DNA of 64,000 bases from Paludibacteraceae bacterium (GTDB lineage Bacteria > Bacteroidota > Bacteroidia > Bacteroidales > Paludibacteraceae): assembly GCA_017546705.1 (NCBI GenBank), contig JAFYSB010000008.1, positions 4,741-68,740 on the forward strand. Reading direction: 5' to 3'. The position numbers and the translations under genes were made by a program. The notes under the pieces were generated by a model. The model was not told where the DNA came from and ran no database searches. It saw only the letters and a list, made by a program, of their open reading frames with translations. Positions 1,990 through 46,465 of this stretch are shown piece by piece (position 1 is the stretch's first letter; the number at the start of each line of letters is the position of its first letter).

Positions 1990-2028
1990 AAAAACAAAGG
2001 CTATCCAATTTGGGTAGCCTTTGTTTTT
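1990..2028 (+). terminator. Intrinsic terminator hairpin (A-tract/T-tract, potentially bidirectional)
   Basis: AAAAACAAAGGCTA-loop-TAGCCTTTGTTTTT lies 16 nt after the stop at 1974. Confidence 0.75.
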
Positions 2029-2067
2029 GTTTAGTGAACGCGGCAGGTCGCTACAGTTTAGTGTTTA
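2029..2067. repeat. GTTTAGT-hairpin-GTTTAGT composite repeat, copy A
   Basis: Sequence gtttagtgaacGCGGcaggtCGCtacagtttagtgttta. It overlaps the stop of the minus-strand ORF 2065..2412. Confidence 0.8.
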
Positions 2068-2412
2068 TTGTTGTGTGGTGAAGCGTACTTGCTCGCGGCA
2101 AAAGCGGAACTCAACTGGGCAGTACTTGAAGCCTCGTTCGTTGGTGACAGGTGTGCCCCAAAACAGGTAGGCATGCTGTCCGCGGCGTACATAAGCACCC
2201 TCTTCTTTCCATTGCTCGTAGGTCTTTAGCTCCGCATCCACAAGGTTGTAGCACTCGCGCAGCAGTTGGTTGCAGGTAAATTTGCTGCGACCAGCAGCTT
2301 TGGCCATTTCGACTAAACCATTGGTAATGGTACGAAGGTGAGCACGATAGTCTTGCATTTTGGATGATTGGTTGGTGGTGAAGGTATTCACCTTGTTGGT
2401 AGTAGTTGTCAT
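2065..2412 (-). CDS. Small hypothetical protein, possibly ArdC/DUF1738-N-like
   Basis: 115-aa ORF. The segment TYEQWKEEGAYVRRGQHAYLFWGTPV weakly resembles the ArdC N-terminal ssDNA-binding motif (by eye only). The stop lies inside repeat copy A. Confidence 0.45.
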   Translation of the reverse strand: MTTTTNKVNTFTTNQSSKMQDYRAHLRTITNGLVEMAKAAGRSKFTCNQLLRECYNLVDAELKTYEQWKEEGAYVRRGQHAYLFWGTPVTNERGFKYCPVEFRFCREQVRFTTQQ

Positions 2413-2567
2413 AATCTTGAAAAAAAATGAAAGTGAATATTATATTGGGTTGGCTATGATTTGCATCCAGATGAGGATACTATACATGTTGCTGAAAAAG
2501 TCCTTTGCAGTGTCTTGCAGTGTGGGTTGGTTGAAGTTAAATTCGAGTTGCATAATAGTTAAATTTT

Positions 2568-2620
2568 AGACCGCTTTGCTGTTAGAAGTTAGACCGCTTT
2601 GCTGTCAGACCGCTCACAGA
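2568..2620. repeat. Direct repeats AGACCGCTTTGCTGT (x2) plus a degenerate third copy
   Basis: Copies at 2568-2586, 2591-2609 and 2607-2620, located in the leader region upstream of the minus-strand gene 2065..2412. A related copy is at 49954-49972. Confidence 0.7.
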
Positions 2621-2657
2621 GCTCGCTGTCGGAGTTTGTATTTTTTGTTTGACGGTG

Positions 2658-2665
2658 CAAAGGTA
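2658..2665 (-). promoter_or_regulatory. Candidate Bacteroidota -7 promoter box (TACCTTTG on the minus strand)
   Basis: The plus strand reads CAAAGGTA. It matches TAnnTTTG and lies ~245 nt upstream of the ATG at 2412, which implies a long leader. Confidence 0.4.
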
Positions 2666-2700
2666 CTATAGTAGACTGCTAAAACTTGTCAGTATCTAAG

Positions 2701-2738
2701 AAAAAATGCACTTTTTTTTGAGAAAAGTGCATTTTTTT
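2701..2738 (-). terminator. Hairpin terminator downstream of the WYL gene
   Basis: AAAAAATGCACTTTT-loop-AAAAGTGCATTTTTTT, a perfect stem flanked by A and T tracts. Confidence 0.7.
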
Positions 2739-2795
2739 GTTTAGTGGACGCGGTAAACCGCTACGGTTTAGGGTTTAGAGGCTGGGTTTAAGTTT
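2739..2795. repeat. GTTTAGT-hairpin-GTTTAG composite repeat, copy B
   Basis: Sequence gtttagtggacGCGGtaaaCCGCtacggtttagggtttagagg..., immediately 3' of the stop at 2799. Confidence 0.8.
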
Positions 2796-2798: not shown

Positions 2799-3701
2799 TT
2801 AAACACAGTACATCTCGTAGGCTTTTTGGGCTTCGTTGCGGAAGATGGCTACCAACTCTTCTGGTTCGCGCACGCGGATATCCGTGCCGTGGGTGCGAAG
2901 TTCTTGTATGAAATCAAGAGTAGGGGCAATATAATATTCGAAGAATGTGTTGCCGTGGAATTGGCGAAGTTCCTTTTGCGAATCGTGCAAAGGCAAGAGA
3001 CGAAGGAACTGTGTGGAAGCGGGTGTTGCTTCGATGATGACTTTGGTAGGTGTTGCGTTGCGGAATACACCATAGTATGGGGCGAAGAATGTTTTGGCAT
3101 CAAACTTCTTAGGATAGATGAAGTTTTGGTCAGTAGGACGCATCGTTTGTACGCGATCCAGGGCATAGATGCGTGTTTCGTTAGGATGTGTGGATGGGCA
3201 ACCCGCTACATACCATCGCTGCTTGAAAACCTTGAGGCAGTAGGGCGACAGGGTCAATTCGTACTGCTCTTGGCGGTTGAAACTGTGGTAGGTGAGTTGC
3301 AGTTGCGTGCGGTGGCGAATAGCATCTACAATGAGACTAAGGTACTGCGTGCCTTCAGGGATATCTTCGTAGAGAACGCAGTCGGTGATGTCCTTGGCTT
3401 GGTCCATCATGGAGTGAACAGCCATGGCATTGAGGAACCATTGGCGTGTGCCACCAGATATATCGTCCTTATTCTCAATGTAATAGACATTACCGCGCGA
3501 CTTACTGCAACGGATGTCTACATCAAAAATCTCTTGTATCTCCTCCTTGTAGCGGTGGAACTTACGTTCGGGGAACTCCTCTTCGTGATTATCGTTGTAG
3601 CGGCAATGTGCCCAACGGCGGTTGATGTCATCGCGGGTGAGATTGCCCGATGCAATGGTGTCGATGAGCCAGAAATAAACGTTTACTTGATGTGCGGCCA
3701 T
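2799..3701 (-). CDS. WYL-domain transcriptional regulator
   Basis: 300 aa. N-terminal HTH-like region. The central QRWYVAGC...RIYALDRV is a WYL-domain signature. There is a C-terminal extension typical of HTH-WYL-WCX regulators. Confidence 0.7.
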   Translation of the reverse strand: MAAHQVNVYFWLIDTIASGNLTRDDINRRWAHCRYNDNHEEEFPERKFHRYKEEIQEIFDVDIRCSKSRGNVYYIENKDDISGGTRQWFLNAMAVHSMMDQAKDITDCVLYEDIPEGTQYLSLIVDAIRHRTQLQLTYHSFNRQEQYELTLSPYCLKVFKQRWYVAGCPSTHPNETRIYALDRVQTMRPTDQNFIYPKKFDAKTFFAPYYGVFRNATPTKVIIEATPASTQFLRLLPLHDSQKELRQFHGNTFFEYYIAPTLDFIQELRTHGTDIRVREPEELVAIFRNEAQKAYEMYCV

Positions 3702-3707: not shown

Positions 3708-3735
3708 GTTTAGTCTTTAGAGTTTAGTGTTTAGA
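3708..3735. repeat. GTTTAGT-type heptamer run, copy C (no hairpin)
   Basis: Sequence gtttagtctttagagtttagtgtttaga. It contains the stop codon of the U32 gene (3724-3726) and encodes its last residues (..SKH). Confidence 0.7.
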
Positions 3736-5460
3736 GATGCGCATTTCGCAGTTTTTACAGTCGAACTCGAGGGACAGGCGTGTGCCGTTTTGCAAACGGA
3801 GATAGCGAGGTTCGTTTGCCATAGGGTTGATCTTGCGGCAATGACCTAACTCATGGAGTATGCAGTATTTGCAGGTCATGAGGGCAGTTGGCAGTTGGCA
3901 GTTGACAGTTGACAGTTGACAGTTGGCAGTTCTTATCTCGCATATGCTCGAACGATCACTCGCAGAGCTCGTGTACGATAGTTGAGCGTTGACAGTTGAT
4001 GGTTTGTTAATGACCTCTCTGCGCCATTGGTTGAGTTGGCTGGTTGGAATGAAATATGGGAAAGTGTCGGAGCATGGCTGTTCGTTAGCAAAGACTTGGA
4101 CGTCTTTGGCTACGAAATCCGTATCTCCGAGTTTACTAAGTTGCTGAACGATAGTTTGTAATGCGCGCTGTGGGTTGGTGGCTGGTTGATGCTCAGCCAC
4201 GAAAGTAGCGCTGTAATCTCCTATTGTCAAACGATAACCATCTGCTATAGCCTCAAAGCGAATTGCTGTAGGTATTTTGCGTTCAGCACGAAGCGAACGC
4301 AGAAATTCGTTGTCGAGATTGCGGTATAAGTTAGTGCCGACTTTGGGAAGCGATCCTCCTGACCTCCCTTCAAGGGAGGATGGTTGAAGGTTGGGATAAA
4401 TCCAGTCGCCTTCTATGCGGTTGATAGCGAAACCTTTGTCACCATAGCAAATGCCGTCACCATTGTGGAGGGTAATGCCATGCGCAAGTTCTACGCAGAT
4501 GGCGTTGTGTCGGGTAGCAATGACCTTACCAATCTTCTCGCCAGTGGATTTAGGTGTTTGCCAATTGGCCATGTTGGGGGTGCGACCATGCAAGAAGTAG
4601 TCGGTTTGTCCGCGGTGGAAGGTTTTAGCAGGGTTTGGAGTAAAGTCGTAATGATAGACGGATGGAGTAGATGCCTGTGCCAATGCAGGGTTGCTATCTA
4701 TCAGTTGGTCAAGCAATTGGCGATAGTATGCAACGATGTTGGTGACATAATCGCGGTCTTTTAATCGACCTTCAATCTTGAAAGTGGTCACGCCTGCCTC
4801 TATCATCTGAGCCAGGTGCTGGCTGCGGTCCATATCTTGGAGCGAGAGTAGGTAACGTTGGTGGATAGGGGCGCCATGGATATCCAGAATCTCATTGCCA
4901 TTTTTGTCGAGCAGGTCGTATCGTTGTCGGCATAGTTGTGCGCAACATCCGCGGTTGGCACTACGATCCATGAGTGCCTCAGAGAGGTAACAACGGCCAC
5001 TATAGCTCACGCATAAGGCACCGTGGACAAAGGCCTCGAGTTCGATGGACCCCTCCAACTCCCCTTCAAGGGGAGAGTTTTGTATAGTGTAGTTGATTTC
5101 TCTGATTTGGTCAATGGATAGTTCGCGGGCGAGAACTACGCGGCGGAAGCCCAATTGCTGCAAATGAAGTACTTGCTCAGGGGTACGATTGTCGCATTGT
5201 GTAGAGGCATGCAGGCGAATGGGAGGAAGGTCGTAGTTGAGGAGGTTGAGGTCTTGGATGATGAGTGCATCCACTCCCACCTTATATAACTCGTGCGCGA
5301 GCGCACACGCGCGAGGATATTCGTCGTCGTGGAGTAGGGTGTTGAGCGTTACAAGTACCTGAGCACCAAAGCGATGGGCGTATAGGACCAATTCGGCGAT
5401 GTCTTCTAAGGAGTTGCCTGCTGCTTGGCGCGCACCGAACTCGGGCGCACCGATATACAC
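3724..5460 (-). CDS. U32-family peptidase (YegQ/RlhA-like), repeat-riddled and without a canonical start codon for its conserved N-terminus
   Basis: U32 signature EAFVHGALCVSYSGRCYLSE. The conserved N-terminus SILAPARDLEVGIAAIQAGADAV continues in frame upstream of the ATG at 5460 to ~5535, and there is no ATG/GTG/TTG before an in-frame TGA. At least three in-frame repeat insertions are present. Confidence 0.8.
   Translation of the reverse strand: MYIGAPEFGARQAAGNSLEDIAELVLYAHRFGAQVLVTLNTLLHDDEYPRACALAHELYKVGVDALIIQDLNLLNYDLPPIRLHASTQCDNRTPEQVLHLQQLGFRRVVLARELSIDQIREINYTIQNSPLEGELEGSIELEAFVHGALCVSYSGRCYLSEALMDRSANRGCCAQLCRQRYDLLDKNGNEILDIHGAPIHQRYLLSLQDMDRSQHLAQMIEAGVTTFKIEGRLKDRDYVTNIVAYYRQLLDQLIDSNPALAQASTPSVYHYDFTPNPAKTFHRGQTDYFLHGRTPNMANWQTPKSTGEKIGKVIATRHNAICVELAHGITLHNGDGICYGDKGFAINRIEGDWIYPNLQPSSLEGRSGGSLPKVGTNLYRNLDNEFLRSLRAERKIPTAIRFEAIADGYRLTIGDYSATFVAEHQPATNPQRALQTIVQQLSKLGDTDFVAKDVQVFANEQPCSDTFPYFIPTSQLNQWRREVINKPSTVNAQLSYTSSASDRSSICEIRTANCQLSTVNCQLPTALMTCKYCILHELGHCRKINPMANEPRYLRLQNGTRLSLEFDCKNCEMRISKH
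3885..4000. repeat. CAGTTGA/CAGTTGG heptamer arrays flanking a ~47-nt core, inside the U32 CDS
   Basis: Array 3885-3931 (about 7 units) and array 3979-4000. Translated on the minus strand as ..STVNAQL...ANCQLSTVNCQLPT. Confidence 0.85.
4354..4384. repeat. Small palindromic element (CCTCCCTTCAAGGGAGG core) inside the U32 CDS
   Basis: Divergent relative of the 30-nt element at 5048 and 49243. Encodes ..SSLEGRSGGS.. Confidence 0.6.
5048..5077. repeat. 30-nt palindromic element GACCCCTCCAACTCCCCTTCAAGGGGAGAG inside the U32 CDS
   Basis: 29/30 identical to 49243-49272 in the same plus-strand orientation. Read on the minus strand it gives NSPLEGELEGS, inserted just before the conserved EAFVHGALC motif. 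Confidence 0.85.
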
Positions 5461-5527
5461 CGCATCAGCACCCGCTTGGATGGCTGCTATACCTACCTCT
5501 AAGTCGCGGGCAGGAGCGAGGATGGAT

Positions 5528-5564
5528 ATTAATTTTGAATTATTAATTTTGAATGATGAATTAG
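5528..5564. repeat. GAATTAT-family heptamer run at the 5' end of the U32 gene
   Basis: Sequence attaattttgaattattaattttgaatgatgaattag, related to the arrays at 48471 and 49646. Confidence 0.65.
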
Positions 5565-25685: not shown

Positions 25686-26708
25686 ATGAAATTCTTATTG
25701 GCTCCCATAGCATGGATTTATGGTTTCGTCGTATGGCTTCGTAATTTGCTATACGACGACCATATCCTGCATTCTACTCAGGTTAGCATACCTACCATTT
25801 GTGTGGGCAATCTTGCTGTAGGCGGAACAGGCAAAACACCAATGGCAGAGTACTTGATTTCTTTGCTCTCATCTGATTATAAGGTAGCGCTTCTTTCGCG
25901 TGGCTATGGGAGAAAAACAAAAGGCTTTCGTATTGCTAATGAGCATGATACAGCACAAACTATTGGTGATGAACCAATGCAAATCCACACCCATTTCCCC
26001 GATATACCTGTGGCTGTATGCGCCGACCGTGTGAAGGGCGTGAAACGTTTACAACAGTTGTATCCTGATTTGCAATGTGTAATCCTCGATGATGCGTACC
26101 AGCACCGCAAGTTGCGTTGCGGATTCTATGTGCTACTTACGCCTTATGACTGCCTATATACCAATGATCATCTGTTGCCATGGGGTAGGTTGCGCGATTT
26201 GCCTAATCAGAGTCACCGAGCCAATGTGGTGGTAGTGACTAAATGTCCGTCTCAAATGCAACCGATTGACAGACGAATAGTGAGCAATGCGTTGCATTTG
26301 GCATCGTACCAGCATTTGGTTTATTCTTCAATCGGTTATGCACCAATAGCATTGAATGGAACACCATTGCTTGTTACGGGCATTGCTAATCCGTTGCCAT
26401 TATTAGAGCATTTGAAAGCACAATGTCCAGATACCGAGTTGCTTGCATTTCCAGATCACCATGTGTTTACGAAACATGATATCGCTCAGATCATGCACAA
26501 AGCAGAACAATATAGCTGTGTTGTAACCACAGAAAAAGATTATATGCGTTTATTACAGACTCCATTGGTTGAACAGTTGGGTAACAAATTGCAAGTATTA
26601 GCTATTCAAACGGATTTGGGTATTGACAAAGAAGCTTTTGATCGTCAAATCCTTCTCTACGTCAGTGAGAATAACCGCAAGCTGTCAACTATTAACTGTC
26701 AACTGTAA
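25686..26708 (+). CDS. lpxK: Tetraacyldisaccharide 4'-kinase with a repeat-encoded C-terminal tail
   Basis: 340 aa. P-loop VGNLAVGGTGKTP. The last residues ..KLSTINCQL come from the heptamer array. Confidence 0.85.
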   Translation: MKFLLAPIAWIYGFVVWLRNLLYDDHILHSTQVSIPTICVGNLAVGGTGKTPMAEYLISLLSSDYKVALLSRGYGRKTKGFRIANEHDTAQTIGDEPMQIHTHFPDIPVAVCADRVKGVKRLQQLYPDLQCVILDDAYQHRKLRCGFYVLLTPYDCLYTNDHLLPWGRLRDLPNQSHRANVVVVTKCPSQMQPIDRRIVSNALHLASYQHLVYSSIGYAPIALNGTPLLVTGIANPLPLLEHLKAQCPDTELLAFPDHHVFTKHDIAQIMHKAEQYSCVVTTEKDYMRLLQTPLVEQLGNKLQVLAIQTDLGIDKEAFDRQILLYVSENNRKLSTINCQL

Positions 26709-26722
26709 ATTGTCAACTGTCC
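26682..26722. repeat. TCAACTG heptamer array (reverse orientation of the CAGTTGA family)
   Basis: Sequence ctgtcaactattaactgtcaactgtaaattgtcaactgtcc. It spans the lpxK stop and ends 3 nt before the next ATG (26726). Confidence 0.8.
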
Positions 26723-33865: not shown

Positions 33866-33930
33866 GGTGAAAGGGGAAAACTGGAAGGTTAAAAGTGAAA
33901 GGTTAAAGGTTAAAGGTTAGAGGTGAAAGG
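33866..33930. repeat. AGGTTAA heptamer array (~9 units)
   Basis: Units aggtgaa aggggaa aactgga aggttaa aagtgaa aggttaa aggttaa aggttag aggtgaa. It contains the stop (33917-33919) of the minus-strand gene. Confidence 0.85.
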
Positions 33931-34333
33931 CGTGGATTTTTGTACGAAGTATGAGGTAAACGATGCCTAATGCAATGATTATCCAAAGTACAATGGTGCA
34001 GCGTTTGTAGAATGGTGGTATATAGCGCTCAGGGGGGTGTTCTACTACGCGGTCACGATACTCCACGACGTGGATCGTGTCCGCTATAGTTGACAGTTGA
34101 CAGTTGAGAGTTGACAGTTGTTTGTCGCGATAAACTTCCTTCGTGATAAAGACTGTATCGTGGACTATGCGCTCGCGATAGACAATGCTGTCGTGGATAG
34201 TTGACAGTTGAGAGTTGACAGTTGACAGTTGGGAAACGCTGTTGTGATGTACACTGTCAATAGTACACTGTACACTGTCAAGGCTTTTGCATGAAGCAAG
34301 GAATACAAGGAAAAGGAGACAAAGATAACGCAT
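33917..34333 (-). CDS. Small lipoprotein with a C-terminal TM anchor (unimolecular-spanin-like topology), carrying two heptamer-array insertions
   Basis: Start at MRYLCLLFLVFLASC (lipobox). C-terminal TM CTIVLWIIIALGIVYLIL. Internal QLSTVNSQLST and QLSTLNCQLST are encoded by arrays at 34198-34232 and 34087-34120. Confidence 0.55.
   Translation of the reverse strand: MRYLCLLFLVFLASCKSLDSVQCTIDSVHHNSVSQLSTVNSQLSTIHDSIVYRERIVHDTVFITKEVYRDKQLSTLNCQLSTIADTIHVVEYRDRVVEHPPERYIPPFYKRCTIVLWIIIALGIVYLILRTKIHAFHL
34087..34232. repeat. Two CAGTTGA heptamer arrays (34087-34120 and 34198-34232) inside a CDS
   Basis: Sequences tagttgacagttgacagttgagagttgacagttg and tagttgacagttgagagttgacagttgacagttgg. Confidence 0.85.
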
Positions 34334-34544: not shown

Positions 34545-35144
34545 TTAAGAGGAGGAACGGCGGTGAGCAAAAGCCGCGGAGCGGATTTCTTTCTCGCAAG
34601 CACATTCCGACGAAGGGCAAGGAGTATTGTAGCCATACTCAGTACCAGGACGAAAGTCAGTGACTTCGAGGATGATCTCTTCATGGGATTGCGTTTCTAA
34701 TAGGAGGTTAGTGAACTTGTTTTCAGTTTCGCGGTCGGGTAGCAAGATACAACCTGTAGAGTGCTTTGGTTGCTTGCCTACATGGAAGCGGATCCCTTGC
34801 CTTAACGCTCCTACTCCCTTCGGTCGAGAAATCTTATTAATCTTATCTTGCTCGCTTCGTTCGCTCGGTGTACTCCGTAATCCATTGCCACCGCTCCTCG
34901 TATCGGAATCCCGATACTCGTGCGCTGAATCTTCAGTACATACGGGAGGTATGCGTGGGACGTTCTGCACGATGGGCAGAAGGCGACGGAACTTCGGAGA
35001 CATGGTGACGGCTACATGGTAGCAGAGGGCGGGGATTTGATAGCCGACACGCTCAAGGGTGTTGCAGAACCAACGACCATTGATAATAAGGCGACCAGTA
35101 ATGGCGGAGGTTTGGGGTTGATTACGGATTAAACGGATATACAT
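34545..35144 (-). CDS. DUF5675-like protein with a ~50-aa in-frame insertion and a C-terminal extension (possibly degenerate)
   Basis: The N-terminus MYIRLIRNQPQTSAITGRLIINGRWFCNTLER...AVTMSPKFRRLLPIVQNVP and the later GIRFHVGKQPKHSTGCILL match my recollection of DUF5675. The low-complexity segment between them has no counterpart. Confidence 0.5.
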   Translation of the reverse strand: MYIRLIRNQPQTSAITGRLIINGRWFCNTLERVGYQIPALCYHVAVTMSPKFRRLLPIVQNVPRIPPVCTEDSAHEYRDSDTRSGGNGLRSTPSERSEQDKINKISRPKGVGALRQGIRFHVGKQPKHSTGCILLPDRETENKFTNLLLETQSHEEIILEVTDFRPGTEYGYNTPCPSSECACEKEIRSAAFAHRRSSS

Positions 35145-35155: not shown

Positions 35156-35199
35156 GTTTAGTGAACGCGCCTTAGGCGCTACTGTTTAGTGTTTAGAGG
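35156..35199. repeat. GTTTAGT-hairpin-GTTTAGT composite repeat, copy D
   Basis: Sequence gtttagtgaacGCGCCttaGGCGCtactgtttagtgtttagagg. Confidence 0.8.
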
Positions 35200-35328
35200 T
35201 CAGGAGGGGGATTTGTAGCGGTATTTATAGTCAATGCCTCGTCGTAGTACGCCATTTGCATTGACTGACGCTTTGCGTCATTGGGCAAAGGCGACTCCTC
35301 CTCTTAAAGTCGAAAACAAGTTTCGCCT

Positions 35329-35514
35329 TTATTCTTTATACCTGTATTTATAGTCAATGCCGATGAGTGAGCCGCTGAAGGTGAGTATCTCACCGAAGGC
35401 GATGAGTACGCTGTGATGAATCTCTGCTAATGGCGGGGCAATAAACCCCGCCGTCAGCATGAGACATCCAAAGACGCACAAGACTACTGATAATGTCAAT
35501 TGAATCTTTTTCAT
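35329..35514 (-). CDS. Small two-TM membrane protein (holin-like topology)
   Basis: 61 aa. Two hydrophobic helices (LTLSVVLCVFGCLMLTAGFIA and SVLIAFGEILTFSGSLIGI) and a charged C-terminus DYKYRYKE. Confidence 0.5.
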   Translation of the reverse strand: MKKIQLTLSVVLCVFGCLMLTAGFIAPPLAEIHHSVLIAFGEILTFSGSLIGIDYKYRYKE

Positions 35515-36293: not shown

Positions 36294-36406
36294 GTTTAGT
36301 GTTTAGTGAACGCGGCGTTGCCGCTACTGTTTAGTGTTTAGGGGTTAGTGTTTAGTGAACGCTCGCGGGGCGAGCTACTGTTTAGTGTTTAGTGTTTAGG
36401 GTTAGG
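36294..36406. repeat. GTTTAGT-hairpin composite repeat, copy E (two tandem units)
   Basis: Hairpins GCGGCgttGCCGC and GCTCGCgggGCGAGC, each flanked by gtttagtgtttagtgaac / tactgtttagtgtttag. It contains the stop at 36402. Confidence 0.85.
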
Positions 36407-36743
36407 AGTTGGTGATGAGGTCGCCGTTCTCGTCGTATTGGCTTTTGATCTTGCTGACTACATAGCCTAAGAGCGAACCGATACGGTGTTGCTTGCGATA
36501 AGCCGATTCGTATTTGGCACGTTGCTCAGGGTCAGCAATGATGGTACGTGCAGCCTGCGTGATCTTAGCAAAGCGTGATTGTGCTTTGAGTTGTGCCTCG
36601 GTAGGTTCCTCGTCTGATGGGTTGCAGAGTTTGCCAGTGACGGTTTTGAGGGTTTGTTTGTTGGTACGGAAGTACATGTCGGAGTGTTCGCATACTTTGC
36701 CACTCATGGTTTTGACGGTGTCGATAGGACGGATTTTTGCCAT
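36402..36743 (-). CDS. Small basic hypothetical protein (paralog family)
   Basis: 113 aa. MAKIRPIDTVKTMSGKVCEHSDMYFRT...NPSDEEPTEAQLKAQSRFAKI. Confidence 0.55.
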   Translation of the reverse strand: MAKIRPIDTVKTMSGKVCEHSDMYFRTNKQTLKTVTGKLCNPSDEEPTEAQLKAQSRFAKITQAARTIIADPEQRAKYESAYRKQHRIGSLLGYVVSKIKSQYDENGDLITNS

Positions 36744-36892: not shown

Positions 36893-36900
36893 CAAAGATA
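36893..36900 (-). promoter_or_regulatory. -7 promoter box TATCTTTG
   Basis: The plus strand reads CAAAGATA, immediately downstream (minus strand) of the terminator hairpin at 36905-36928. Confidence 0.45.
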
Positions 36901-36904
36901 CAAC

Positions 36905-36928
36905 AAACCCACAGGGTTGCTGTGGGTT
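36905..36928 (-). terminator. Terminator hairpin at the end of the AT-rich operon
   Basis: AAACCCACAG-ggttg-CTGTGGGTT. On the minus strand it is followed by TTTGTTGT. Confidence 0.65.
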
Positions 36929-36991
36929 AACGTTGGTCATTGTGGGACAAAGCCCGACAAAATCGGAAAAAGTAGGAAGAGGGGGGGATTA

Positions 36992-37321
36992 TTATTGAGT
37001 GACTAGGCGAAAGCCTACCCCAGGTCCATCAGAATTAGGAAAATTATACATACAATTTGTTATTGTGTTGTATCTAGAATAATATTTATGTCCTCCACCA
37101 CGTATAACACGGTATCCCTTATGTTTCGTAGAACACCATTCACCTACATTACCAGACATATCAAACAATCCCAATTCATTTGGTTTCTTTTGGGCAACAG
37201 GATGAGTATTAATGAGATTATACCATGCAACCTCATCACGAGCGCGCCATACTTCGCCGAAGGAACCACGACCTAATTTGCGGAGAAGACGATAACGATT
37301 ATGAAATAGTGTGTCTTGCAT
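36992..37321 (-). CDS. Remnant of a Ser/Thr kinase / FGE-sulfatase (SUMF1) fusion protein, with an internal deletion
   Basis: 109 aa. Residues 8-30 (YRLLRKLGRGSFGEVWRARDE) form the kinase glycine loop. They are joined directly to an FGE-family C-terminus (NELGLFDMSGNVGEWC...RVIRGG...GVGFRLV). Confidence 0.6.
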   Translation of the reverse strand: MQDTLFHNRYRLLRKLGRGSFGEVWRARDEVAWYNLINTHPVAQKKPNELGLFDMSGNVGEWCSTKHKGYRVIRGGGHKYYSRYNTITNCMYNFPNSDGPGVGFRLVTQ

Positions 37322-37390
37322 AAATGACTTAAGAAAGAGTCACAAATAAGCGAATTAGGCATTTCGTGAAGGTGACAAATATGTTACAAT

Positions 37391-39109
37391 TTACAAGTCT
37401 TTGACAAGACGGACACTCATGCCATAATAGTGTTCTTCATAGTATTCTTTCCATTCGGTTGACCCTATGCAGAATATTAGAGGGTAGTAGGAACCATCTA
37501 CTTCATATTCTGTGGACAACCAATAATATCCAATCTCTTGATAACCATCTACTGTGGTATTATATCTATAACCTGCATTGGGCAAAAATACAGCTCCAGC
37601 TTGCTCCATACGTTCCCAAGTGTTACCCTTAAAAGATTGATATGTAGCATAATTATCTAAATTCTCATTCGAGTGAAAACCTGATTTAAAAGTAACTCCA
37701 GACGGACATATCCAATTGTCTGGCAGTATGATTAAACCATTCACACTATTTACATTAGCAATTCCACATAATTTACCAGCATTAGGGCGAGTGTATCGTA
37801 GATAATACCATTCGTCATATGTTAGTGTTCGCCATGTACCTGCAGGATCGTTACCAATCTTTTTGTTGCCCCAATCAACAAATGTAGAATAGTTGGAATT
37901 AGATGTACTTTTATTAGTTGGATTATTACCCGTTCCCCATCCAAATAGATCAATCCATCCCGTATAAGATGAACTAATATTAGCATTAGAAGCACCTATA
38001 TAGTCATATTGATTAGGAGCAAAACGCCAAGTATTAGTACTTGCCTTATATTGCAAATTTCCTGATGAGAACAGGATTTGCTTGGTTTTACTTATTGAAA
38101 ATAAATTATCTGGACGATCATCATATACAGGACGAATAGAAATTCCAGAATGACGAGTTACTCCATATTTACCGACCTCACCATCTTCAAAAAATACACA
38201 AAGTCCAAAGTATGGATGAGGATCTGCTATATCGACATATAATGAACTTGTCCAATAGTACCCAGCCTTCCCTGATTCTGCCGAATTATCTCCTTCTATA
38301 ACACCTGCAGCGGGCAAGAAAATACTCTTTCCATTGGGACCTGTTACACTATATCCATTTACTCCATTACGTGTAGTCCATTTCCATACACAATTCTCAA
38401 TGAGTTCGTCTCGCTCAGAATCAGTTGGCATACGATAAGCTCCACCTAAATTGACGTGAGCAGCATCATCTGTTGCATCGAGTTTTGTCTTATTATCAAC
38501 ATTGCCATAAGCATTAGAATAACAGTATTTATTCAACGTTGTTTTAGAACCAGAACAATACTTGTAAGTACTCCATGAATAGTATTCTTTAGGATTTACT
38601 TCACCCCAAGAATAGTATTCGCCATACTCTTCTGGATTTTCCGCTCCAAGATTACACGTTGCCCATTTTACACTTAATCCCAAATCAACATAACTACTAT
38701 GACTTGCTACAGTTTGAAAAGTATAGTGCTGTTTGTGTATTTTTGATGAATAGGCATTTGATGCCTTAAAACAAAAATAATAAGACAAATTTTCTTGTAA
38801 TCCATCAATGGTTACTGAAAAATGATTCTGTTCATCAACAGGAGTCATTTGAATGGATTGAAGTGAGATTTGTTCTCCATGATTGAAAGGTAAATCTTCT
38901 ACATTTGGTGTATAAAGAATATACAAATCATCAATAGAATACTCCGTCATTACAGCACATGAAATTGTGACTCCAGTGGCAAATGGCTCGGTATTAATTT
39001 GATATATATCGAATAAATGGTATGGCATGGAAACATTCTCTTCCACACATGTGCAAAAAAATAAAGGTATCGCAATAAGAAGCAACAACTGATTATAAAC
39101 CTTTTTCAT
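37391..39109 (-). CDS. Surface lipoprotein with two FISUMP/DUF1566-like domains
   Basis: 572 aa. Signal/lipobox IPLFFCTC. SVKWATCNLGA..YYSWGE...YRMPTDSERDELI...FLPAAG, and a second copy WRTLTYDEWYYL...FLPNAGYRY...YYWLS. Confidence 0.65.
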   Translation of the reverse strand: MKKVYNQLLLLIAIPLFFCTCVEENVSMPYHLFDIYQINTEPFATGVTISCAVMTEYSIDDLYILYTPNVEDLPFNHGEQISLQSIQMTPVDEQNHFSVTIDGLQENLSYYFCFKASNAYSSKIHKQHYTFQTVASHSSYVDLGLSVKWATCNLGAENPEEYGEYYSWGEVNPKEYYSWSTYKYCSGSKTTLNKYCYSNAYGNVDNKTKLDATDDAAHVNLGGAYRMPTDSERDELIENCVWKWTTRNGVNGYSVTGPNGKSIFLPAAGVIEGDNSAESGKAGYYWTSSLYVDIADPHPYFGLCVFFEDGEVGKYGVTRHSGISIRPVYDDRPDNLFSISKTKQILFSSGNLQYKASTNTWRFAPNQYDYIGASNANISSSYTGWIDLFGWGTGNNPTNKSTSNSNYSTFVDWGNKKIGNDPAGTWRTLTYDEWYYLRYTRPNAGKLCGIANVNSVNGLIILPDNWICPSGVTFKSGFHSNENLDNYATYQSFKGNTWERMEQAGAVFLPNAGYRYNTTVDGYQEIGYYWLSTEYEVDGSYYPLIFCIGSTEWKEYYEEHYYGMSVRLVKDL

Positions 39110-39122
39110 ATATAAAATTCAT

Positions 39123-40604
39123 TTAAAATGTCCAACCTACACCTACTTCAAATTCTAAGTAATGGAAATTAATAGTATTGACGCCCGCAGACAGAGTGAA
39201 TCCTCCCATACTTGCAATTAATCCTGCATCGACACTAACACCTGTGATTGATCCTGGAGCGCACATGATCCACTCTGATGTGCCCTCTAACTGCCAATAG
39301 AGACGCGAATGACCATATCCTAAACCAACGTACATGCCAAACATGTTATTCTCATTTCGCCACTTGACATTTCTCAAGAAGTCCATTGCAAATCCCACAT
39401 TTGCAACACATTCAGAGTTTGCAGTTTGATCTGTATAAAAAGGTATCACATACTCGTCTCCATTCCTAATCACTCCTTGTTGATTACAAGTTATTCCTTC
39501 TATCGCTTCAGGAAATATGAAGTTGCTTCTTCCTTTGACATACCAACCGAATCCGTTATACAATTGTCCGAAAGTTAATCCGATACCCCAACGTAAATTC
39601 ATTGACATTCCAGCATATCCCATCAGATAGGTGTTGATTAATACTTTGTTAGATTTAGATTTTCGAAGTGGATTTAATCTAATTTGCTGATTATTTGTAG
39701 CATATACAGTCTTTGTCTCAAACCCTTTATAACTAATCTCAATCATCGCCCCTTCTTTAGTCGCAAACATAAATTTTCCATTAGAATCTGTAATTGTTAC
39801 TTTTGATGTGCCTACCTCTGCAACAGAAGCTCCATTCAAAGGTTCTCCTGTAGTAGCATTTAATACAGTACCTTTGATGGTTTGGGTAGAGTTAGCATCC
39901 GATGTTTGAAGTGGATTTAATCTAATTTGCATATTGTTTGCAGCAGATACAATCTTTGTTTCGAAATCTTTGCAAGTCACTTCAAGCATCGTACCCTCAC
40001 TGGCCGCAAGCATAAATTTTCCATTAGAATCTGTAATTGTTACTTTTGATGTGCCTACCTCTACAATAGAAGCTCCATTCAAAGGTTCTCCTGTAGTAGC
40101 ATTTAATATAGTACCTTGGATGGTTTGAGCAGATTTTGTACTTGGCATCACGTGGTCTTCAACAGGATTGTAACATACAGCTCCATCATAAACCGCATCT
40201 GATTCTAAACGATTTAGTGAAAGTATTTGTTGTTTCTGACATCCCTCACCACAAGTAAGAACAACAGTTCCCGCTGATGATGGCACCAAAAATATCAACT
40301 CATTTTCCACTTCATCTATCTTAGATTCTGGTTGATAATGTTGCCCTAAATATAAACTTAGTTTTTCTTTGGCTGCTAGCACTTGAGTTTCATTCCCCTC
40401 TAATTTTATGCGAATCACAGCATATGCAAATTTATCATCTACATTTGGATTTTCAAAATTTTGAAAGTATTTACTATACATTGCCAATACAGATGCATAT
40501 TGCAACTTCTCAAATGGCTTTATCACTTCTAATGATTGTCCTACACACGCTATAGGAGTAAAAAGTAATACAAAGACGAATAGATATGAGTAAAAATGTT
40601 TCAT
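39123..40604 (-). CDS. Outer-membrane protein: two tandem CarboxypepD_reg-like domains plus a C-terminal beta-barrel-like region
   Basis: 493 aa. Signal peptide. There are two ~81-aa repeats (TIQGTILNATTGEPLNGASIVEVGTSKVTITDSNGKF...). The C-terminus has alternating aromatic/Gly beta-strand patterns and ends ..GVGWTF. Confidence 0.6.
   Translation of the reverse strand: MKHFYSYLFVFVLLFTPIACVGQSLEVIKPFEKLQYASVLAMYSKYFQNFENPNVDDKFAYAVIRIKLEGNETQVLAAKEKLSLYLGQHYQPESKIDEVENELIFLVPSSAGTVVLTCGEGCQKQQILSLNRLESDAVYDGAVCYNPVEDHVMPSTKSAQTIQGTILNATTGEPLNGASIVEVGTSKVTITDSNGKFMLAASEGTMLEVTCKDFETKIVSAANNMQIRLNPLQTSDANSTQTIKGTVLNATTGEPLNGASVAEVGTSKVTITDSNGKFMFATKEGAMIEISYKGFETKTVYATNNQQIRLNPLRKSKSNKVLINTYLMGYAGMSMNLRWGIGLTFGQLYNGFGWYVKGRSNFIFPEAIEGITCNQQGVIRNGDEYVIPFYTDQTANSECVANVGFAMDFLRNVKWRNENNMFGMYVGLGYGHSRLYWQLEGTSEWIMCAPGSITGVSVDAGLIASMGGFTLSAGVNTINFHYLEFEVGVGWTF
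39660..40140. repeat. 243-nt tandem duplication inside the CDS
   Basis: The strings gaagtggatttaatctaatttgc and ccattagaatctgtaattgttacttttgatgtgcctacctct recur with a 243-nt period. Confidence 0.85.
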
Positions 40605-40645
40605 TCGTTAATTATATGATATATGATACATAAGATTTTAATATA

Positions 40646-43096
40646 CTAATACATTACTCCACTTGTTATCCTGTCGTAATCACTCATTGTGAATGGGATT
40701 GCGCCCTCGCTTTCTGGATGCCAAGTACGAACTCGTATTACAGGATTTTCTGTATCCTTTGCGTCAATTAGCAAAAATAGATACCCATGATCACCATAGT
40801 TCGATGAATAATAGTCTTGTAAAAGACATATACCATACATATTACGTTGGCTACTTTGTTCCACTGATGTTTGACCAAACTTAATATTAATCCATTCTTT
40901 CTGTGTTGCACGTAAACGACTAATGTAAGCTTTTTTGGATTGTCTAGTTAATTTATAATCGTTGATAAGCATTTGACGACCATCATCAAAGGTTTCCATG
41001 CGTTTAATGACACGACCTGTGATGATTACAGCATCATCTGAGAATATTTTCTCCACATAGTCCCAATCTTGAAATGCGAAAGCAGTTTGATAATTTTCCA
41101 TAAAATGTACCAAGAGCAATTTGGATGTCTCCTCAATAGTATTGCTATACATGATATTTCGCGCAGCTCGTTCGTCCAATGCAAATTGTATACCATCTAC
41201 TTTTCCAATAGCATTGTACACTAAAATTACATTTTCAGTTACCTTTTTACCCTTGGTAAATGAAAAAGTCATTGGTAAACTTCTACATTGTACATCTTCA
41301 CCGATATGTAGATACTTACATACATCAGTAGTTATTACATGAGGATTACCATAAGACATCATTCGTTGATATTGCAAGAATCCTTTTGCAGTGAAGACAC
41401 CCTCTAATGAGGTTCTATCCATATTTTTGGTTCGAATTGCTTCTACGACCTTTAATGTTAGAGTATGATATCTTGCAGAATCTTCTCCAGTGATATAATG
41501 ATATGTTTTTTGAACTTTATCTGCCACCACGTTTTGATTGATTGCTGTTGAATACCTGTTGCCTGCAGTGTTATTTACTTGCGAAATATTATACTGCTTT
41601 TGCACCAATGGAATGGTCTTAATCGCATATTGATCGTAATTAAAATTGTATTTTTTCATTAACGTTGACAATTCTGGGTCGAAATTGGCTTCCGCTTCAT
41701 AACGATAATCTAAACGAACAAACACTTGTTGTATAGCTTTGCCATCTGGAGTAAAAATGGTTGACCAACCATCTCTTGCTCCTAAAATATCACTCCATCC
41801 CTCATTAGCATTTGCACTAAAACTAATATTACTGATAGGTTCGTTATTATATCGAAAACTCAATTTGTATTCATTAGAACTTTGAGGCATATATCCATCA
41901 CATTTGATATCCACTTTCGCTAATATATCTTTAATTGAATTTTGAATATAATCTTTTGCGTAAACACCATTATACTTGATGATATCTGAATCGCCTAAAT
42001 CTGTTAATATCAATTGCGCAGCATAAAGATATCGCAAAGCATCTCCTATCGCACATTTTTTAAGATAACCTTCCGACATACCTATGTATTCTAAGACTTT
42101 GCTTTGTCTTGAATCTCTAACGCTCGTTCCAATGAGGATTTTTTTCTCAGCTAACAATTTTTTTATCTCGTTATTCTTGTCAGTATATTCTGATGCATAA
42201 TAAGACATCTCATAGGTTTCGACAAATGTAATATATGGTTGTAATTCCTCGAGTTTCGTCTGTGCTTTTTCCCACAGAGCATAAGCCTCACTAATTCTAT
42301 CTTCCAACATATAACTATCCATGTTCTCTAACCATGCAGAACAAATATCTAATTCTCCTTTTACGTAAGGACCATAGTGTTTGAGAACATCGTTGCGCTT
42401 GATATATGCGATGGCATATGCTTCTTTTTTATACTCAATTGATTCCGCACCAATTAGTATATGTAAAGCCGTATCTTTTAAAAAATATCGCTCCATCAAG
42501 GCATGTTTAGCCTTCTCTTTTAATTTAACTCCTAATCCTTTGGCAGTGCCTTGTTCAACTTCTTCCTCTTCAGCTACGAAAAAATAAGCATTACTCTCAT
42601 ATTTCATCCATTCATCGGGACGCAGCGACACCAATCCTACTTCATCATCACCAGAGCTACCACAATGTCTAAATTCGGTAAATTCATGTTTCATCCTAGC
42701 ATCTACAGACACTTGACAAAGCACATATACTCGTACCAGTCCATTCTTTAACTGTTGGCGATAGTAGCACACTTGTCGCATGGGAATACGCATTTGCTGG
42801 ATGTACTCTAACATGTTCTCATCTCCCCATTGTGCAGCATCTTTCAGTTTATCCGTATCAACAGTTAAGCCTGTTGTTGCACTCTTTGCATTTAACAAAA
42901 TCATCGCTAACGCTTTGTTTCGTGCAGACTCTTCAGAAGTTCCTGTAGCATCAGCTCTATCATAACGATACGTAGTATTTTCTGCTTTAGGTAAAGTACG
43001 TATCCAAGTAGGTTTGGCAGCATATACGTAACCAATAAAAAGCAGTAATATGATTACGCACCATCTACGATGACCAGTAGTAAGTAAATGTGTCAT
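40646..43096 (-). CDS. Large exported protein: LPP20-like N-terminal domain, unknown middle region, NTF2/SnoaL-like C-terminal domain
   Basis: 816 aa. After the signal peptide, KPTWIRTLPKAENTTYRY...SEESARNKALA parallels the N-terminus of ORF 44826..45263. The C-terminus (FMENYQTAFAFQDWDYVEKIFSDDAVIITG...WINIKFG...) looks NTF2-like. Confidence 0.5.
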   Translation of the reverse strand: MTHLLTTGHRRWCVIILLLFIGYVYAAKPTWIRTLPKAENTTYRYDRADATGTSEESARNKALAMILLNAKSATTGLTVDTDKLKDAAQWGDENMLEYIQQMRIPMRQVCYYRQQLKNGLVRVYVLCQVSVDARMKHEFTEFRHCGSSGDDEVGLVSLRPDEWMKYESNAYFFVAEEEEVEQGTAKGLGVKLKEKAKHALMERYFLKDTALHILIGAESIEYKKEAYAIAYIKRNDVLKHYGPYVKGELDICSAWLENMDSYMLEDRISEAYALWEKAQTKLEELQPYITFVETYEMSYYASEYTDKNNEIKKLLAEKKILIGTSVRDSRQSKVLEYIGMSEGYLKKCAIGDALRYLYAAQLILTDLGDSDIIKYNGVYAKDYIQNSIKDILAKVDIKCDGYMPQSSNEYKLSFRYNNEPISNISFSANANEGWSDILGARDGWSTIFTPDGKAIQQVFVRLDYRYEAEANFDPELSTLMKKYNFNYDQYAIKTIPLVQKQYNISQVNNTAGNRYSTAINQNVVADKVQKTYHYITGEDSARYHTLTLKVVEAIRTKNMDRTSLEGVFTAKGFLQYQRMMSYGNPHVITTDVCKYLHIGEDVQCRSLPMTFSFTKGKKVTENVILVYNAIGKVDGIQFALDERAARNIMYSNTIEETSKLLLVHFMENYQTAFAFQDWDYVEKIFSDDAVIITGRVIKRMETFDDGRQMLINDYKLTRQSKKAYISRLRATQKEWINIKFGQTSVEQSSQRNMYGICLLQDYYSSNYGDHGYLFLLIDAKDTENPVIRVRTWHPESEGAIPFTMSDYDRITSGVMY

Positions 43097-46393: not shown

Positions 46394-46420
46394 GAAAATG
46401 GCGAAAAAATCGCCATTTTC
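46394..46420. terminator. Hairpin terminator downstream of the RAYT-like gene and its REP array
   Basis: GAAAATGGCGA-aaaaa-TCGCCATTTTC. Confidence 0.6.
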
Positions 46421-46421: not shown

Positions 46422-46465
46422 GTTTAGAGGATGCGCCAGAGGCGCTATAGTTTAGAGGTTAGAGG
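46422..46465. repeat. GTTTAG-hairpin-GTTTAG composite repeat, copy F
   Basis: Sequence gtttagaggatGCGCCagaGGCGCtatagtttagaggttagagg. Confidence 0.8.

What the first reader, a model, noticed from the sequence alone, without database searches (positions are those of the whole stretch)
2029..2795. Composite heptamer-hairpin-heptamer elements (GTTTAGT family) placed exactly at the 3' ends of minus-strand genes
There are six copies (2029-2067, 2739-2795, 3708-3735, 35156-35199, 36294-36406 with two units, 46422-46465). They share the architecture GTTTAGT(n)-GAAC-[GC hairpin]-TAC-N-GTTTAGTGTTTAG. The hairpin sequences differ (GCGGcaggtCGC, GCGGtaaaCCGC, GCGCCttaGGCGC, GCGGCgttGCCGC, GCTCGCgggGCGAGC, GCGCCagaGGCGC) but always pair. 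All copies have the same orientation, and four of them contain or abut the stop codon of a minus-strand gene. On the minus strand the unit reads CTAAACA, so a run of heptamers supplies TAA in all three frames. This looks like a mobile three-frame stop plus hairpin module rather than ordinary terminators.
Basis: seen in the sequence. Interest (0 to 1): 0.62.

Follow-up and report, generated by a model that had tools for sequence, protein, structure and literature searches.

The report
Tiny hairpin repeats in heptamer spacers
The window comes from an uncultured gut Bacteroidales bacterium (Paludibacteraceae) whose gene-to-gene spacers, and a few protein loops, carry a genus-specific family of roughly 20-base GC hairpins set inside GTTTAGN heptamer repeats; this is a REP-like insertional repeat, not a purpose-built stop signal or terminator.

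Summary
The motif GTTTAGN-GRAC-[GC hairpin]-TAY-N-GTTTAG occurs six times on the + strand, with 0 expected by chance. The copy listed at 3708-3735 has heptamers only and no hairpin.

The family is not local. More than 110 loci were found, almost all in one genus-level group of herbivore-gut Paludibacteraceae MAGs. A covariance model gave 23 hits in 251 kb of same-genus DNA and 0 in 279 kb of sister genera.

Copies lie between a stop codon and the next start codon or terminator, in either orientation (22 versus 20 after de-duplication). They almost never sit between divergent genes (1 of 55). The uniform orientation next to minus-strand genes in this window does not hold elsewhere.

Stems are 98.7% Watson-Crick, yet nearly every copy in a genome has its own stem. 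Units are gained and lost between strains and species. One extra unit in this window matches a unit at an unrelated locus over about 44 aligned bases.

I read it as a REP-like insertional DNA repeat living in slippage-prone heptamer arrays. The three-frame stops are real but look like a by-product. How it moves is unknown: no RAYT gene was seen in 1.1 Mb. Its effects on RNA are inferred, not shown.

The parts
2029..2068 (+). E1: GTTTAGT-GAAC-GCGGCAGGTCGC-TAC-A-GTTTAGT-GTTTAT. The stop codon of minus ORF 2065..2412 lies in the last heptamer.
   Evidence: 42 bits, E 4e-8. Orthologous sites range from empty (L124) to full units.
2739..2795 (+). E2: GTTTAGT-GGAC-GCGG-TAAA-CCGC-TAC-G followed by GTTTAGG/GTTTAGA-type heptamers. 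It fills the 3' UTR between the stop of the WYL gene (2799-2801) and the terminator.
   Evidence: The whole segment 2740-2798 is replaced by other repeats in related strains and species.
3708..3735 (+). Heptamer-only array (GTTTAGT CTTTAGA GTTTAGT GTTTAGA). It forms the spacer between the U32 peptidase stop (3724-3726) and the WYL gene ATG (3699-3701). It has no hairpin.
   Evidence: Some orthologues carry a hairpin unit in this same spacer (L137, L139-L141).
35156..35199 (+). E4: GTTTAGT-GAAC-GCGCC-TTA-GGCGC-TAC-T-GTTTAGT-GTTTAGA, 12 nt upstream of the ATG of minus ORF 34545..35144.
   Evidence: 55.6 bits
36294..36342 (+). E5a: a 49-nt unit with stem GCGGC-GTT-GCCGC. It is present in this window but absent from orthologues and from a related strain.
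   Evidence: It is absent in L019 and L057 (alignment A4) and in run X9 (joint 36284->36345). The same unit is found at an unrelated locus, L005.
36343..36406 (+). E5b: a unit with stem GCTCGC-GGG-GCGAGC followed by trailing heptamers. The stop of minus ORF 36402..36743 lies in the last degenerate heptamer.
   Evidence: It is conserved in L019 and L057.
46422..46465 (+). E6: a variant unit, GTTTAGA-GGAT-GCGCC-AGA-GGCGC-TAT-A-GTTTAGA-GGTTAGA.
   Evidence: 43.7 bits
63595..63663 (-). Intragenic composite in recQ. Read on the minus strand it is: hairpin GCACGCAAAGCGTGC, GGTTTAGA, mini unit GGAC-GCTTCGC-TAC, unit GAAC-GGCAGC-ACA-GCTGCC-TAC, AGTTTAAAG. It corresponds to an in-frame 24-aa insertion.
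1990..2028 (.). A/T-flanked bidirectional terminator hairpin directly abutting E1 (context, not part of the repeat).
   Evidence: It is conserved in orthologues.
2701..2738 (.). A/T-flanked bidirectional terminator hairpin directly abutting E2 (context).
   Evidence: z -4.95 for the whole 3' UTR fold
46394..46420 (.). Terminator hairpin directly abutting E6 (context).

Best explanation
The element is a lineage-specific, REP-like dispersed DNA repeat.

Anatomy (shown). The core is about 20-24 nt: GRAC, then a GC-only stem of 2-6 bp with a 3-4 nt loop, then TAY. On the other strand this reads RTA-G...C-GTYC, which resembles a GTAG-tagged palindrome. The core sits inside tandem GTTTAGN heptamer arrays.

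Behaviour (shown). It acts as an insertional entity at the DNA level. Whole units appear, disappear or are swapped at orthologous sites. At least one unit has been copied between unrelated loci. It persists only where insertions are tolerated: transcribed spacers downstream of a stop codon, in either orientation, and surface loops of proteins when the reading frame avoids its stops.

Stop codons (shown). Both strands of the heptamer carry a stop (TAG on one, TAA on the other) with a 7-nt period. Any ORF that runs into an array is therefore closed within three repeats. That is why ORFs appear to end exactly in the element.

Inferred steps. Heptamer arrays grow and shrink by slippage. Units move either through a single-strand hairpin-specific (Y1/RAYT-like) enzyme or through gene conversion using the flanking heptamers as homology. 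Perfect stems are kept either by selection on the transcribed hairpin or by arm-to-arm template switching. Once transcribed, the hairpin probably acts like a REP: a barrier to 3'-to-5' exonucleases or an obstacle to ribosomes near the stop codon. On the GTTTAGT strand it may act as a weak terminator or attenuator. The G-free CUAAACA tracts would serve as unstructured leaders for the next cistron.
For: Real and non-random:
- Six matches against 0 expected, confirmed by covariance-model hits.

Genus-wide family:
- More than 110 loci in genome contigs, almost all in Paludibacteraceae MAGs.
- 23 covariance-model hits in 37 same-genus loci, 0 in 43 loci from other genera. None in viral contigs.

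Position:
- 158 instances: 73 (-,-), 54 (+,+), 14 convergent, 2 divergent.
- After clustering orthologues: 22, 20, 5 and 1.
- The upstream stop codon and the next ATG usually lie within 0-20 nt of the element.

Polarity belongs to the DNA element, not to the transcript:
- Loops are C-poor (9%) on the GTTTAGT strand in both orientation classes.

Structure is maintained:
- 746 of 756 stem positions are Watson-Crick.
- In the formal test 97% of cells are paired against 70% in shuffles, and 43 cells change on both sides of a pair.

Turnover and copying:
- The WYL 3' UTR and the U32-WYL spacer carry different repeats, hairpins in both orientations, or none, across 37 species.
- E5a is absent in L019, L057 and a strain in run X9, and matches a unit at the unrelated locus L005 over about 44 aligned bases.
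- The E2 segment is swapped out between strains.

In-frame intragenic copies:
- Copies occur at two different recQ sites in different species.

Transcription:
- Metatranscriptome contigs span E4 and contain many paralogous copies.

Literature parallels:
- REPs lie between unidirectional and convergent ORFs, are mostly downstream of genes, and occur inside repair genes (PMC3733652).
Against: - No Y1/RAYT homologue was found by tblastn in 1.1 Mb of genus DNA. The probes were E. coli TnpA-REP (verified against PDB 4ER8) and from-memory IS608 and IS200 TnpA sequences (not verified).
- Copies are arranged head to tail, not as the head-to-head or tail-to-tail dimers typical of REP, BIME and REPIN elements.
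- Within one MAG, 21 of 24 copies have different stems or loops. Simple copy-and-paste does not predict this.
- The last G of the 'GTAG' tag is base-paired here, whereas the canonical tag is unpaired.
- Near-perfect stems despite this diversity could instead indicate direct selection for a function.
- The metatranscriptome evidence comes from assembled contigs that may include DNA, so transcription itself is weakly supported.
- No RNA 3'-end or expression data could be obtained, so every effect on RNA is inference.
Confidence: 0.6

Rival explanations
1. The element is a selected RNA-level spacer cassette. It would combine a three-frame stop, a stable hairpin that blocks exonucleases or uncouples ribosomes, and a G-free A/C-rich leader that promotes Shine-Dalgarno-independent initiation of the next cistron.
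For: - Stop codons are read from the heptamers.
- In the CUAAACA sense the ATG follows within about 9 nt. In the GUUUAGU sense an additional A-rich stretch of 10-35 nt intervenes.
- Stems are 98.7% paired despite their diversity.
- The sense-strand fold is a clean hairpin between unstructured tracts.
- L115 and L119 carry G.U pairs only in the sense RNA.
- TAACTGA heptamers just upstream of start codons are proposed translational signals in Beggiatoaceae and some Bacteroidetes (PMC4679880).
Against: - Both orientations are equally common (22 versus 20), although the motif is not symmetric.
- Loop composition follows the DNA strand, not the transcript.
- The hairpin is dispensable. About half of the orthologous U32-WYL spacers lack any hairpin, and empty sites exist (L124, L118, L119).
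- Copies occur in frame inside recQ, where no such function applies.
- The family is absent from sister genera that share the same gene order.
Confidence: 0.22
2. The element is an intrinsic terminator or attenuator acting on the GTTTAGT strand. In this window that would mean terminating antisense transcription.
For: On the + strand, hairpin plus TACTGTTTAG passes a loose terminator consensus at 35167, 36312, 36361 and 46433.
Against: - The U-tract is interrupted and the stems are short. Two hairpins together fold at only -16.8 kcal/mol.
- E1 and E2 fail the consensus.
- In 20 of 55 clusters the transcribed strand is the other one, which has no U-tract.
- In (+,+) sites the next ATG lies 10-35 nt downstream within apparent operons.
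- Canonical terminators sit immediately beside E1, E2 and E6.
Confidence: 0.07
3. The element is a DNA binding site for a chromosome-organising or replication-oriented factor. This would resemble gyrase or IHF binding at BIMEs, or polar motifs such as KOPS and Chi.
For: - The motif is polar.
- There is a weak link to strand composition. GC skew is positive in the element's orientation in 36 of 55 clusters, and neighbouring copies on one contig share a strand 28 times against 18.
- All six intergenic copies in this window lie on the G-rich strand.
Against: - The orientation bias is weak.
- Copies cluster in tandem and turn over rapidly.
- Copies occur inside coding sequence.
- No candidate binding protein was identified.
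Confidence: 0.06

Closest known systems
REP / BIME / REPIN elements of the GTAG superfamily, with their RAYT (TnpA-REP) transposases
   Same: - Both are short GC-rich palindromes with a short conserved tag at one end (here RTAG on the reverse strand) and a short tail at the other.
- Both have many dispersed copies.
- Both are biased to spacers between co-directional or convergent genes and lie mostly downstream of ORFs.
- Both are transcribed.
- Both occasionally occur in frame inside DNA repair genes.
- Both show complementary changes in stems (PMC3733652).
   Different: - Each copy here has its own stem sequence.
- Units are arranged head to tail rather than as inverted dimers.
- Units are embedded in heptamer tandem arrays.
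- The last G of the tag is base-paired.
- No RAYT gene has been found so far.
- The 2013 survey did not report GTAG-type REPs in Bacteroidetes (PMC3733652).
Intergenic heptamer direct repeats: TAACTGA arrays of Beggiatoaceae, cyanobacteria and some Bacteroidetes, and cyanobacterial STRR
   Same: - Both are tandem 7-nt repeats of 2-6 or more copies in intergenic DNA, often a few nucleotides upstream of start codons or overlapping the upstream stop.
- Both give stops in all three frames in one orientation.
- Paludibacter is among the reported hosts (PMC4679880).
   Different: - The heptamer is different (GTTTAGN).
- Both orientations are used here.
- The arrays here carry an inserted GC-hairpin module, which that work does not describe.
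Small dispersed repeats (SDR4-6) of Nostocaceae (Elhai et al. 2008, Genome Res 18:1484). Cited from memory and through PMC5861425; the paper itself was not available.
   Same: Both are very small (about 21-27 nt) hairpin-forming repeats that behave as mobile insertions with no known transposase.
   Different: They occur in a different phylum and have a different sequence. SDR copies are near-identical, whereas stems here differ from copy to copy. Any association with heptamer arrays in the SDR case rests on my recollection only.
Rickettsia palindromic elements (RPE) and other intragenic MITE-like repeats
   Same: Both insert in frame into protein-coding genes, adding short peptide segments at tolerated surface positions.
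   Different: RPEs are 100-150 bp and have a conserved sequence. The units here are 20-70 nt and lie mostly between genes.
Rho-independent terminators
   Same: Both have a GC hairpin. On one strand a T-rich tail follows.
   Different: The T-run here is interrupted. Both orientations occur. True terminators lie alongside the element.

Membership tests
REP (GTAG superfamily) / REPIN-RAYT system | Short (20-40 bp) GC-rich imperfect palindrome | tested here: met
   Core of 18-24 nt with stems of 3-6 GC pairs and loops of 3-4 nt.
REP (GTAG superfamily) / REPIN-RAYT system | Conserved unpaired GTAG tetranucleotide at one end | tested here: inconclusive
   The reverse strand reads A-GTA-G[stem], with variants ATAG and GAAG. 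GTA is unpaired, but the final G is the first base of the stem.
REP (GTAG superfamily) / REPIN-RAYT system | High copy number, extragenic, enriched between co-directional and convergent genes, depleted between divergent genes | tested here: met
   About one copy per 8-9 kb in the window. More than 110 loci. One divergent site among 55 clusters.
REP (GTAG superfamily) / REPIN-RAYT system | Family members share the stem sequence | tested here: not met
   76 distinct cores among 158 copies, falling into 25 stem types. 21 distinct cores among 24 copies in one MAG.
REP (GTAG superfamily) / REPIN-RAYT system | Inverted (head-to-head or tail-to-tail) dimers predominate | tested here: not met
   Clusters are head-to-tail tandems (E5, L012, L026, L066, L115, L122).
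REP (GTAG superfamily) / REPIN-RAYT system | A RAYT (Y1 HUH transposase) gene flanked by the repeats | tested here: inconclusive
   No tblastn hit with E < 0.9 in 1.1 Mb of genus DNA, using verified TnpA-REP and from-memory (unverified) IS608 and IS200 probes. Whole genomes could not be searched.
Intergenic heptamer direct repeats (TAACTGA / STRR type) | Tandem direct 7-nt repeats in intergenic DNA, next to start codons or overlapping stop codons | tested here: met
Intergenic heptamer direct repeats (TAACTGA / STRR type) | The specific heptamer sequence (TAACTGA, or STRR1-3) | tested here: not met
   The unit is GTTTAGN.
Intrinsic terminator | Stable hairpin followed at once by an uninterrupted U-run on the transcribed strand | tested here: not met
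   The tail is UACUGUUUAG on one strand and GUUCACUAAAC on the other. In this window the neighbouring genes are on the strand without the T-rich tail.
Integron attC site | Inverted core sites RYYYAAC ... GTTRRRY flanking an imperfect long hairpin, in cassette arrays beside an integrase | tested here: not met
   The heptamers are direct repeats, not inverted. GTTTAGT fails the GTTRRRY consensus. The flanking genes are syntenic housekeeping genes.
Described RNA families (Rfam 15) | A match at gathering score | tested here: not met
   0 matches in the window.

The most novel reading that the evidence does not exclude
The units would be transposase-independent, self-correcting palindromes. They would spread between loci by gene conversion through the flanking heptamer arrays, and keep perfect but copy-specific stems through arm-to-arm template switching. 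The genus would then have exapted them as a modular intercistronic spacer for its Shine-Dalgarno-less translation system, combining stops in all frames on both strands, an exonuclease-blocking hairpin and a G-free leader.
Probability: 0.15. Interest if true: 0.7.

Novelty: new variant of a known kind. Interest (0 to 1): 0.5.

Why it matters
The finding extends REP-like hairpin repeats to Bacteroidota, where GTAG-type REPs had not been reported. It also ties them physically to the poorly understood intergenic heptamer repeats.

The family shows an unusual combination of features: uniform flanks, perfectly paired stems and a different stem in almost every copy. That combination bears on how such repeats are made and maintained.

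There are practical consequences too. These repeats supply stop codons and C-terminal tails, insert peptides into proteins such as RecQ and the U32 peptidase, break metagenome assemblies, and could serve as strain markers in herbivore-gut Paludibacteraceae.

Tried and rejected
- Phage origin: no megablast match, no copies in viral contigs, and the window carries chromosomal housekeeping genes.
- Known RNA family: none found in Rfam. No tRNA or tmRNA genes.
- Integron attC, CRISPR repeats and Bacteroidetes promoter motifs: rejected on anatomy. The heptamers are direct rather than inverted, there are no spacers, and there is no TTTG/TAnnTTTG motif.
- G.U versus A.C mismatch test for the strand on which the hairpin matters: only 10 non-Watson-Crick positions among 756, too few to decide.
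- RNA evidence: only assembled contigs of metatranscriptomes were available. They show the element within RNA-derived contigs but give no strand and no RNA ends.
- Replication-linked orientation: only weak signals.
- recQ orthologues from genome contigs: the scan was saturated with distant homologues. This was solved through the protein database and encoding contigs instead.
- RAYT search: negative in the sampled DNA.
- Four-helix-bundle gene flanked by inverted units: it proved to be a single orthologous locus, not a general association.
- Elhai et al. 2008 could not be read.
- The paired one-base indels at 35169/35177 and 2750/2758 in strain data are probably paralogous copies mapping here, not polymorphism.
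Full report
**1. Observation.**
The pattern GTTTAGNGRAYGC-N4-16-GCTAYNGTTTAG matches six times, all on the + strand (2029, 2739, 35156, 36301, 36350, 46422), and none of 100 shuffles gave a match. GTTTAGT itself occurs 16 times against 7.3 expected.

The copy listed at 3708-3735 is four heptamers with no hairpin module. A looser structural scan and a covariance model (R1, built from alignment A2) recover the six sites with E-values from 3e-7 to 3e-11.

Four ORF stop codons do fall in or beside the heptamers (2065-2067, 2799-2801, 3724-3726, 36402-36404). E4 instead sits 12 nt upstream of a start codon. Both strands of the heptamer carry a stop, TAG on one and TAA on the other. With a 7-nt period, three repeats therefore close all three frames in either direction.

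**2. Source of the window.**
The window is chromosomal Bacteroidales DNA. It encodes MutS, UvrD-like, Omp85, TonB-dependent receptor, Rho, RecQ and U32 peptidase proteins. It has no phage match, no tRNA genes and no Rfam family. The closest public relatives are uncultured Paludibacteraceae MAGs from ruminant and other herbivore guts.

**3. Distribution.**
Almost all are in Paludibacteraceae MAGs.

Loci fetched through the neighbouring WYL gene were not selected for the element, so they give an unbiased comparison. Model R1 finds 23 hits in the 37 loci of the same genus (80-99% protein identity, 251 kb) and none in 43 loci of other genera (41-57% identity, 279 kb). There are no copies in viral contigs. 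In the window the density is about one unit per 8-9 kb.

**4. Position and orientation.**
I applied a crude ORF-based gene call to 158 instances. With the GTTTAGT strand defined as +, the neighbouring genes are (-,-) in 73 cases, (+,+) in 54, convergent in 14 and divergent in 2. The background of intergenic regions in the same loci is 296, 232, 71 and 66.

After clustering orthologous loci into 55 clusters, the counts are 22, 20, 5 and 1. The element therefore avoids promoter-only spacers but has no preferred orientation relative to transcription. The uniform orientation in this window does not hold across loci.

Distances are very short. The upstream stop is usually within about 0-10 nt of the heptamer next to the module. 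The next ATG lies about 9 nt away when the mRNA reads CUAAACA, and 10-35 nt away, with an extra A-rich stretch, when it reads GUUUAGU.

In many sites, including E1, E2 and E6, the element lies between the stop codon and a canonical A/T-flanked terminator hairpin. It is therefore not the terminator for the neighbouring genes. On the GTTTAGT strand, hairpin plus TACTGTTTAG does pass a loose terminator consensus, so weak termination in that direction cannot be excluded.

**5. The hairpin.**
The instances were selected on their flanks only. Among them, 746 of 756 stem positions are Watson-Crick. Even so, there are 76 distinct cores and 25 stem types. Within one MAG, 21 of 24 copies differ, and the duplicates there are mostly tandem copies.

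I ran a formal pair count on 33 units with 13-nt cores. This set was pre-selected for at least 4 of 5 pairs, so the result is biased upward. It gives 97% of cells paired against 70% in shuffles, 24-53% when the partner column is slid, and 43 cells changed on both sides of a pair.

Stems are almost entirely G and C. Minimal forms with only GC-NNN-GC also exist.

Loop composition is asymmetric, with 9% C on the GTTTAGT strand. The asymmetry is the same whether that strand is sense or antisense. The polarity therefore belongs to the DNA element rather than to an RNA selected in one orientation.

As RNA in the CUAAACA sense, the fold is a clean hairpin between unstructured G-free tracts.

**6. Turnover and mobility.**
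- *WYL 3' UTR.* Across 37 species, the stretch between the stop codon and the conserved terminator holds very different contents. These include the window's unit, four bare heptamers, tandem ATAGC[hairpin]GTCC units with CAATAGC heptamers, the same kind of unit in the opposite orientation (GGAC[hairpin]TATA, three copies), GTAA-tagged hairpins, other hairpin types, and 11-mers.
- *U32-WYL spacer.* It holds bare CTAAACA repeats, other heptamers, or a hairpin unit. The last few codons and the stop of the U32 gene are read from whatever repeat is present.
- *E1 site.* It ranges from empty (L124) through minimal units to full units.
- *Strain data.* Segment 2740-2798 (E2) is replaced as a block in related strains.
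- *Unit E5a.* This 49-nt unit equals seven heptamer lengths. It is missing from orthologues L019 and L057 and from the dominant strain of run X9. About 44 aligned bases of it (core plus flanks) match a unit at the unrelated locus L005. This is direct evidence for copying between loci.
- *recQ.* The window's RecQ carries a 24-aa in-frame insertion encoded by a composite of these units. Across the genus, two RecQ loops are hypervariable. In other species the same kind of unit (GTTTAGA, two GRAC-hairpin-TAC modules, GTTTAGA) sits in frame at the second loop.

**7. Interpretation.**
The best fit is a REP-like insertional DNA repeat living in slippage-prone heptamer arrays. It is tolerated only in transcribed, non-promoter spacers and in permissive protein loops.

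The shown steps are its anatomy, distribution, lack of orientation preference, maintained pairing, turnover, copying between loci and intragenic insertion.

The inferred steps are the mobilising mechanism and all effects on RNA. For the mechanism, the candidates are a Y1/RAYT-type hairpin enzyme or gene conversion through heptamer homology. For the effects, the candidates are an exonuclease barrier, a ribosome obstacle 5-20 nt past the stop codon (as reported for E. coli REPs, from my own knowledge), weak attenuation on one strand, and a G-free leader for the next cistron.

No Y1 transposase was detected in 1.1 Mb of genus DNA. The TnpA-REP probe was checked and is identical to PDB 4ER8; the IS608 and IS200 probes were recalled from memory and not checked. 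This is a sample, not whole genomes.

Perfect stems that differ from copy to copy are not explained by plain copy-and-paste. Arm-to-arm template switching or selection on the hairpin could account for them. I could not separate these two.

**8. Comparison with known systems.**
REPs of the GTAG superfamily share several features: size, an end tag, extragenic position between unidirectional and convergent ORFs, transcription, and intragenic copies in repair genes (PMC3733652). That survey did not report GTAG-type REPs in Bacteroidetes. The present family differs in four ways: copy-specific stems, head-to-tail arrangement, embedding in heptamer arrays and a partly paired tag. The RAYT criterion remains open.

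The heptamer part resembles the TAACTGA and STRR type of intergenic repeats. Those lie near start codons, give stops in three frames, and were reported in a few Bacteroidetes including Paludibacter (PMC4679880).

The very small mobile SDR repeats of Nostoc (Elhai 2008, cited from memory and through PMC5861425) and the Rickettsia palindromic elements are further analogues, for small size and for in-frame insertion respectively.

**9. Verdict.**
It is partly wrong: there is no orientation or strand rule, and the stop supply looks incidental. I class it as a new variant of a known kind, of moderate interest.

Noticed in passing
window 3883-3931, 5527-5563, 26682-26721, 33885-33930, 34088-34120, 34199-34231, 46023-46067, 48472-48514, 49646-49703: Many other tandem heptamer arrays with different units (GGCAGTT, TATGAAT, CTGTCAA, AAGGTTA, AGTTGAC, TTGACAA, AATTATG, GAATTAT) lie at gene junctions. 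Period 7 is by far the commonest short period in the window. GGCAGTT x7 is read in frame as part of the C-terminal region of the U32 peptidase.
   Followed up: partly
window 46473-46641 and 47896-47912: A 46-bp tandem repeat (3.8 copies), each copy containing the hairpin CCCGAC-TAGAA-GTCGGG, lies directly after E6. A further copy of the hairpin lies 1.3 kb away.
   Followed up: no
window 5050-5077, 49245-49272, 4363-4379: A second small hairpin repeat, CCCCTCCARCTCCCCTTCAAGGGGAGAG, lies in frame inside two unrelated ORFs. In the U32 peptidase it encodes SPLEGELEG, and in an AAA_25 protein it encodes PPAPLQGER. A diverged relative sits elsewhere in the U32 gene.
   Followed up: partly
window 63139-63237 (recQ, minus strand): There is a second in-frame insertion in recQ of 33 aa, built from AGTTCAGG octamer repeats plus a small GCGC hairpin. 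The same peptide motif (SSGVQEF) occupies the other hypervariable RecQ loop in other species.
   Followed up: partly
window about 36900-46000: A low-GC island (GC 0.34-0.40) lies between E5 and E6. It contains large ORFs without Pfam hits and a 243-bp tandem repeat at 39658-40127.
   Followed up: no
window 2561-2642 and 2637-2703: In related strains the 23-bp tandem repeat upstream of ORF 2065..2412 is replaced by a heptamer-like stretch, TACAGTTAACAGTTGATAGTTTACAA. The adjacent block containing a TACCTTTG motif (Bacteroidetes -7 promoter type, from my own knowledge) recruits 5-10 times the single-copy depth in metagenomes, so it is repeated in these genomes.
   Followed up: no
L080 2872-3261 (also L099, L075): A 129-aa gene that looks, from my own knowledge, like a four-helix-bundle (23S rRNA intervening-sequence type) protein lies between two inverted units; no family search was run on it. 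Its last 12 codons and its stop are encoded by the unit itself.
   Followed up: partly
window 35217-35240 and 35340-35360: The 3' end of the 61-aa membrane ORF 35329..35514 is partly duplicated just beside E4.
   Followed up: no
window 52962-54944: The Rho gene encodes 660 aa, with a long insertion between the N-terminal and RNA-binding domains. From my own knowledge this is usual for Bacteroidota.
   Followed up: no
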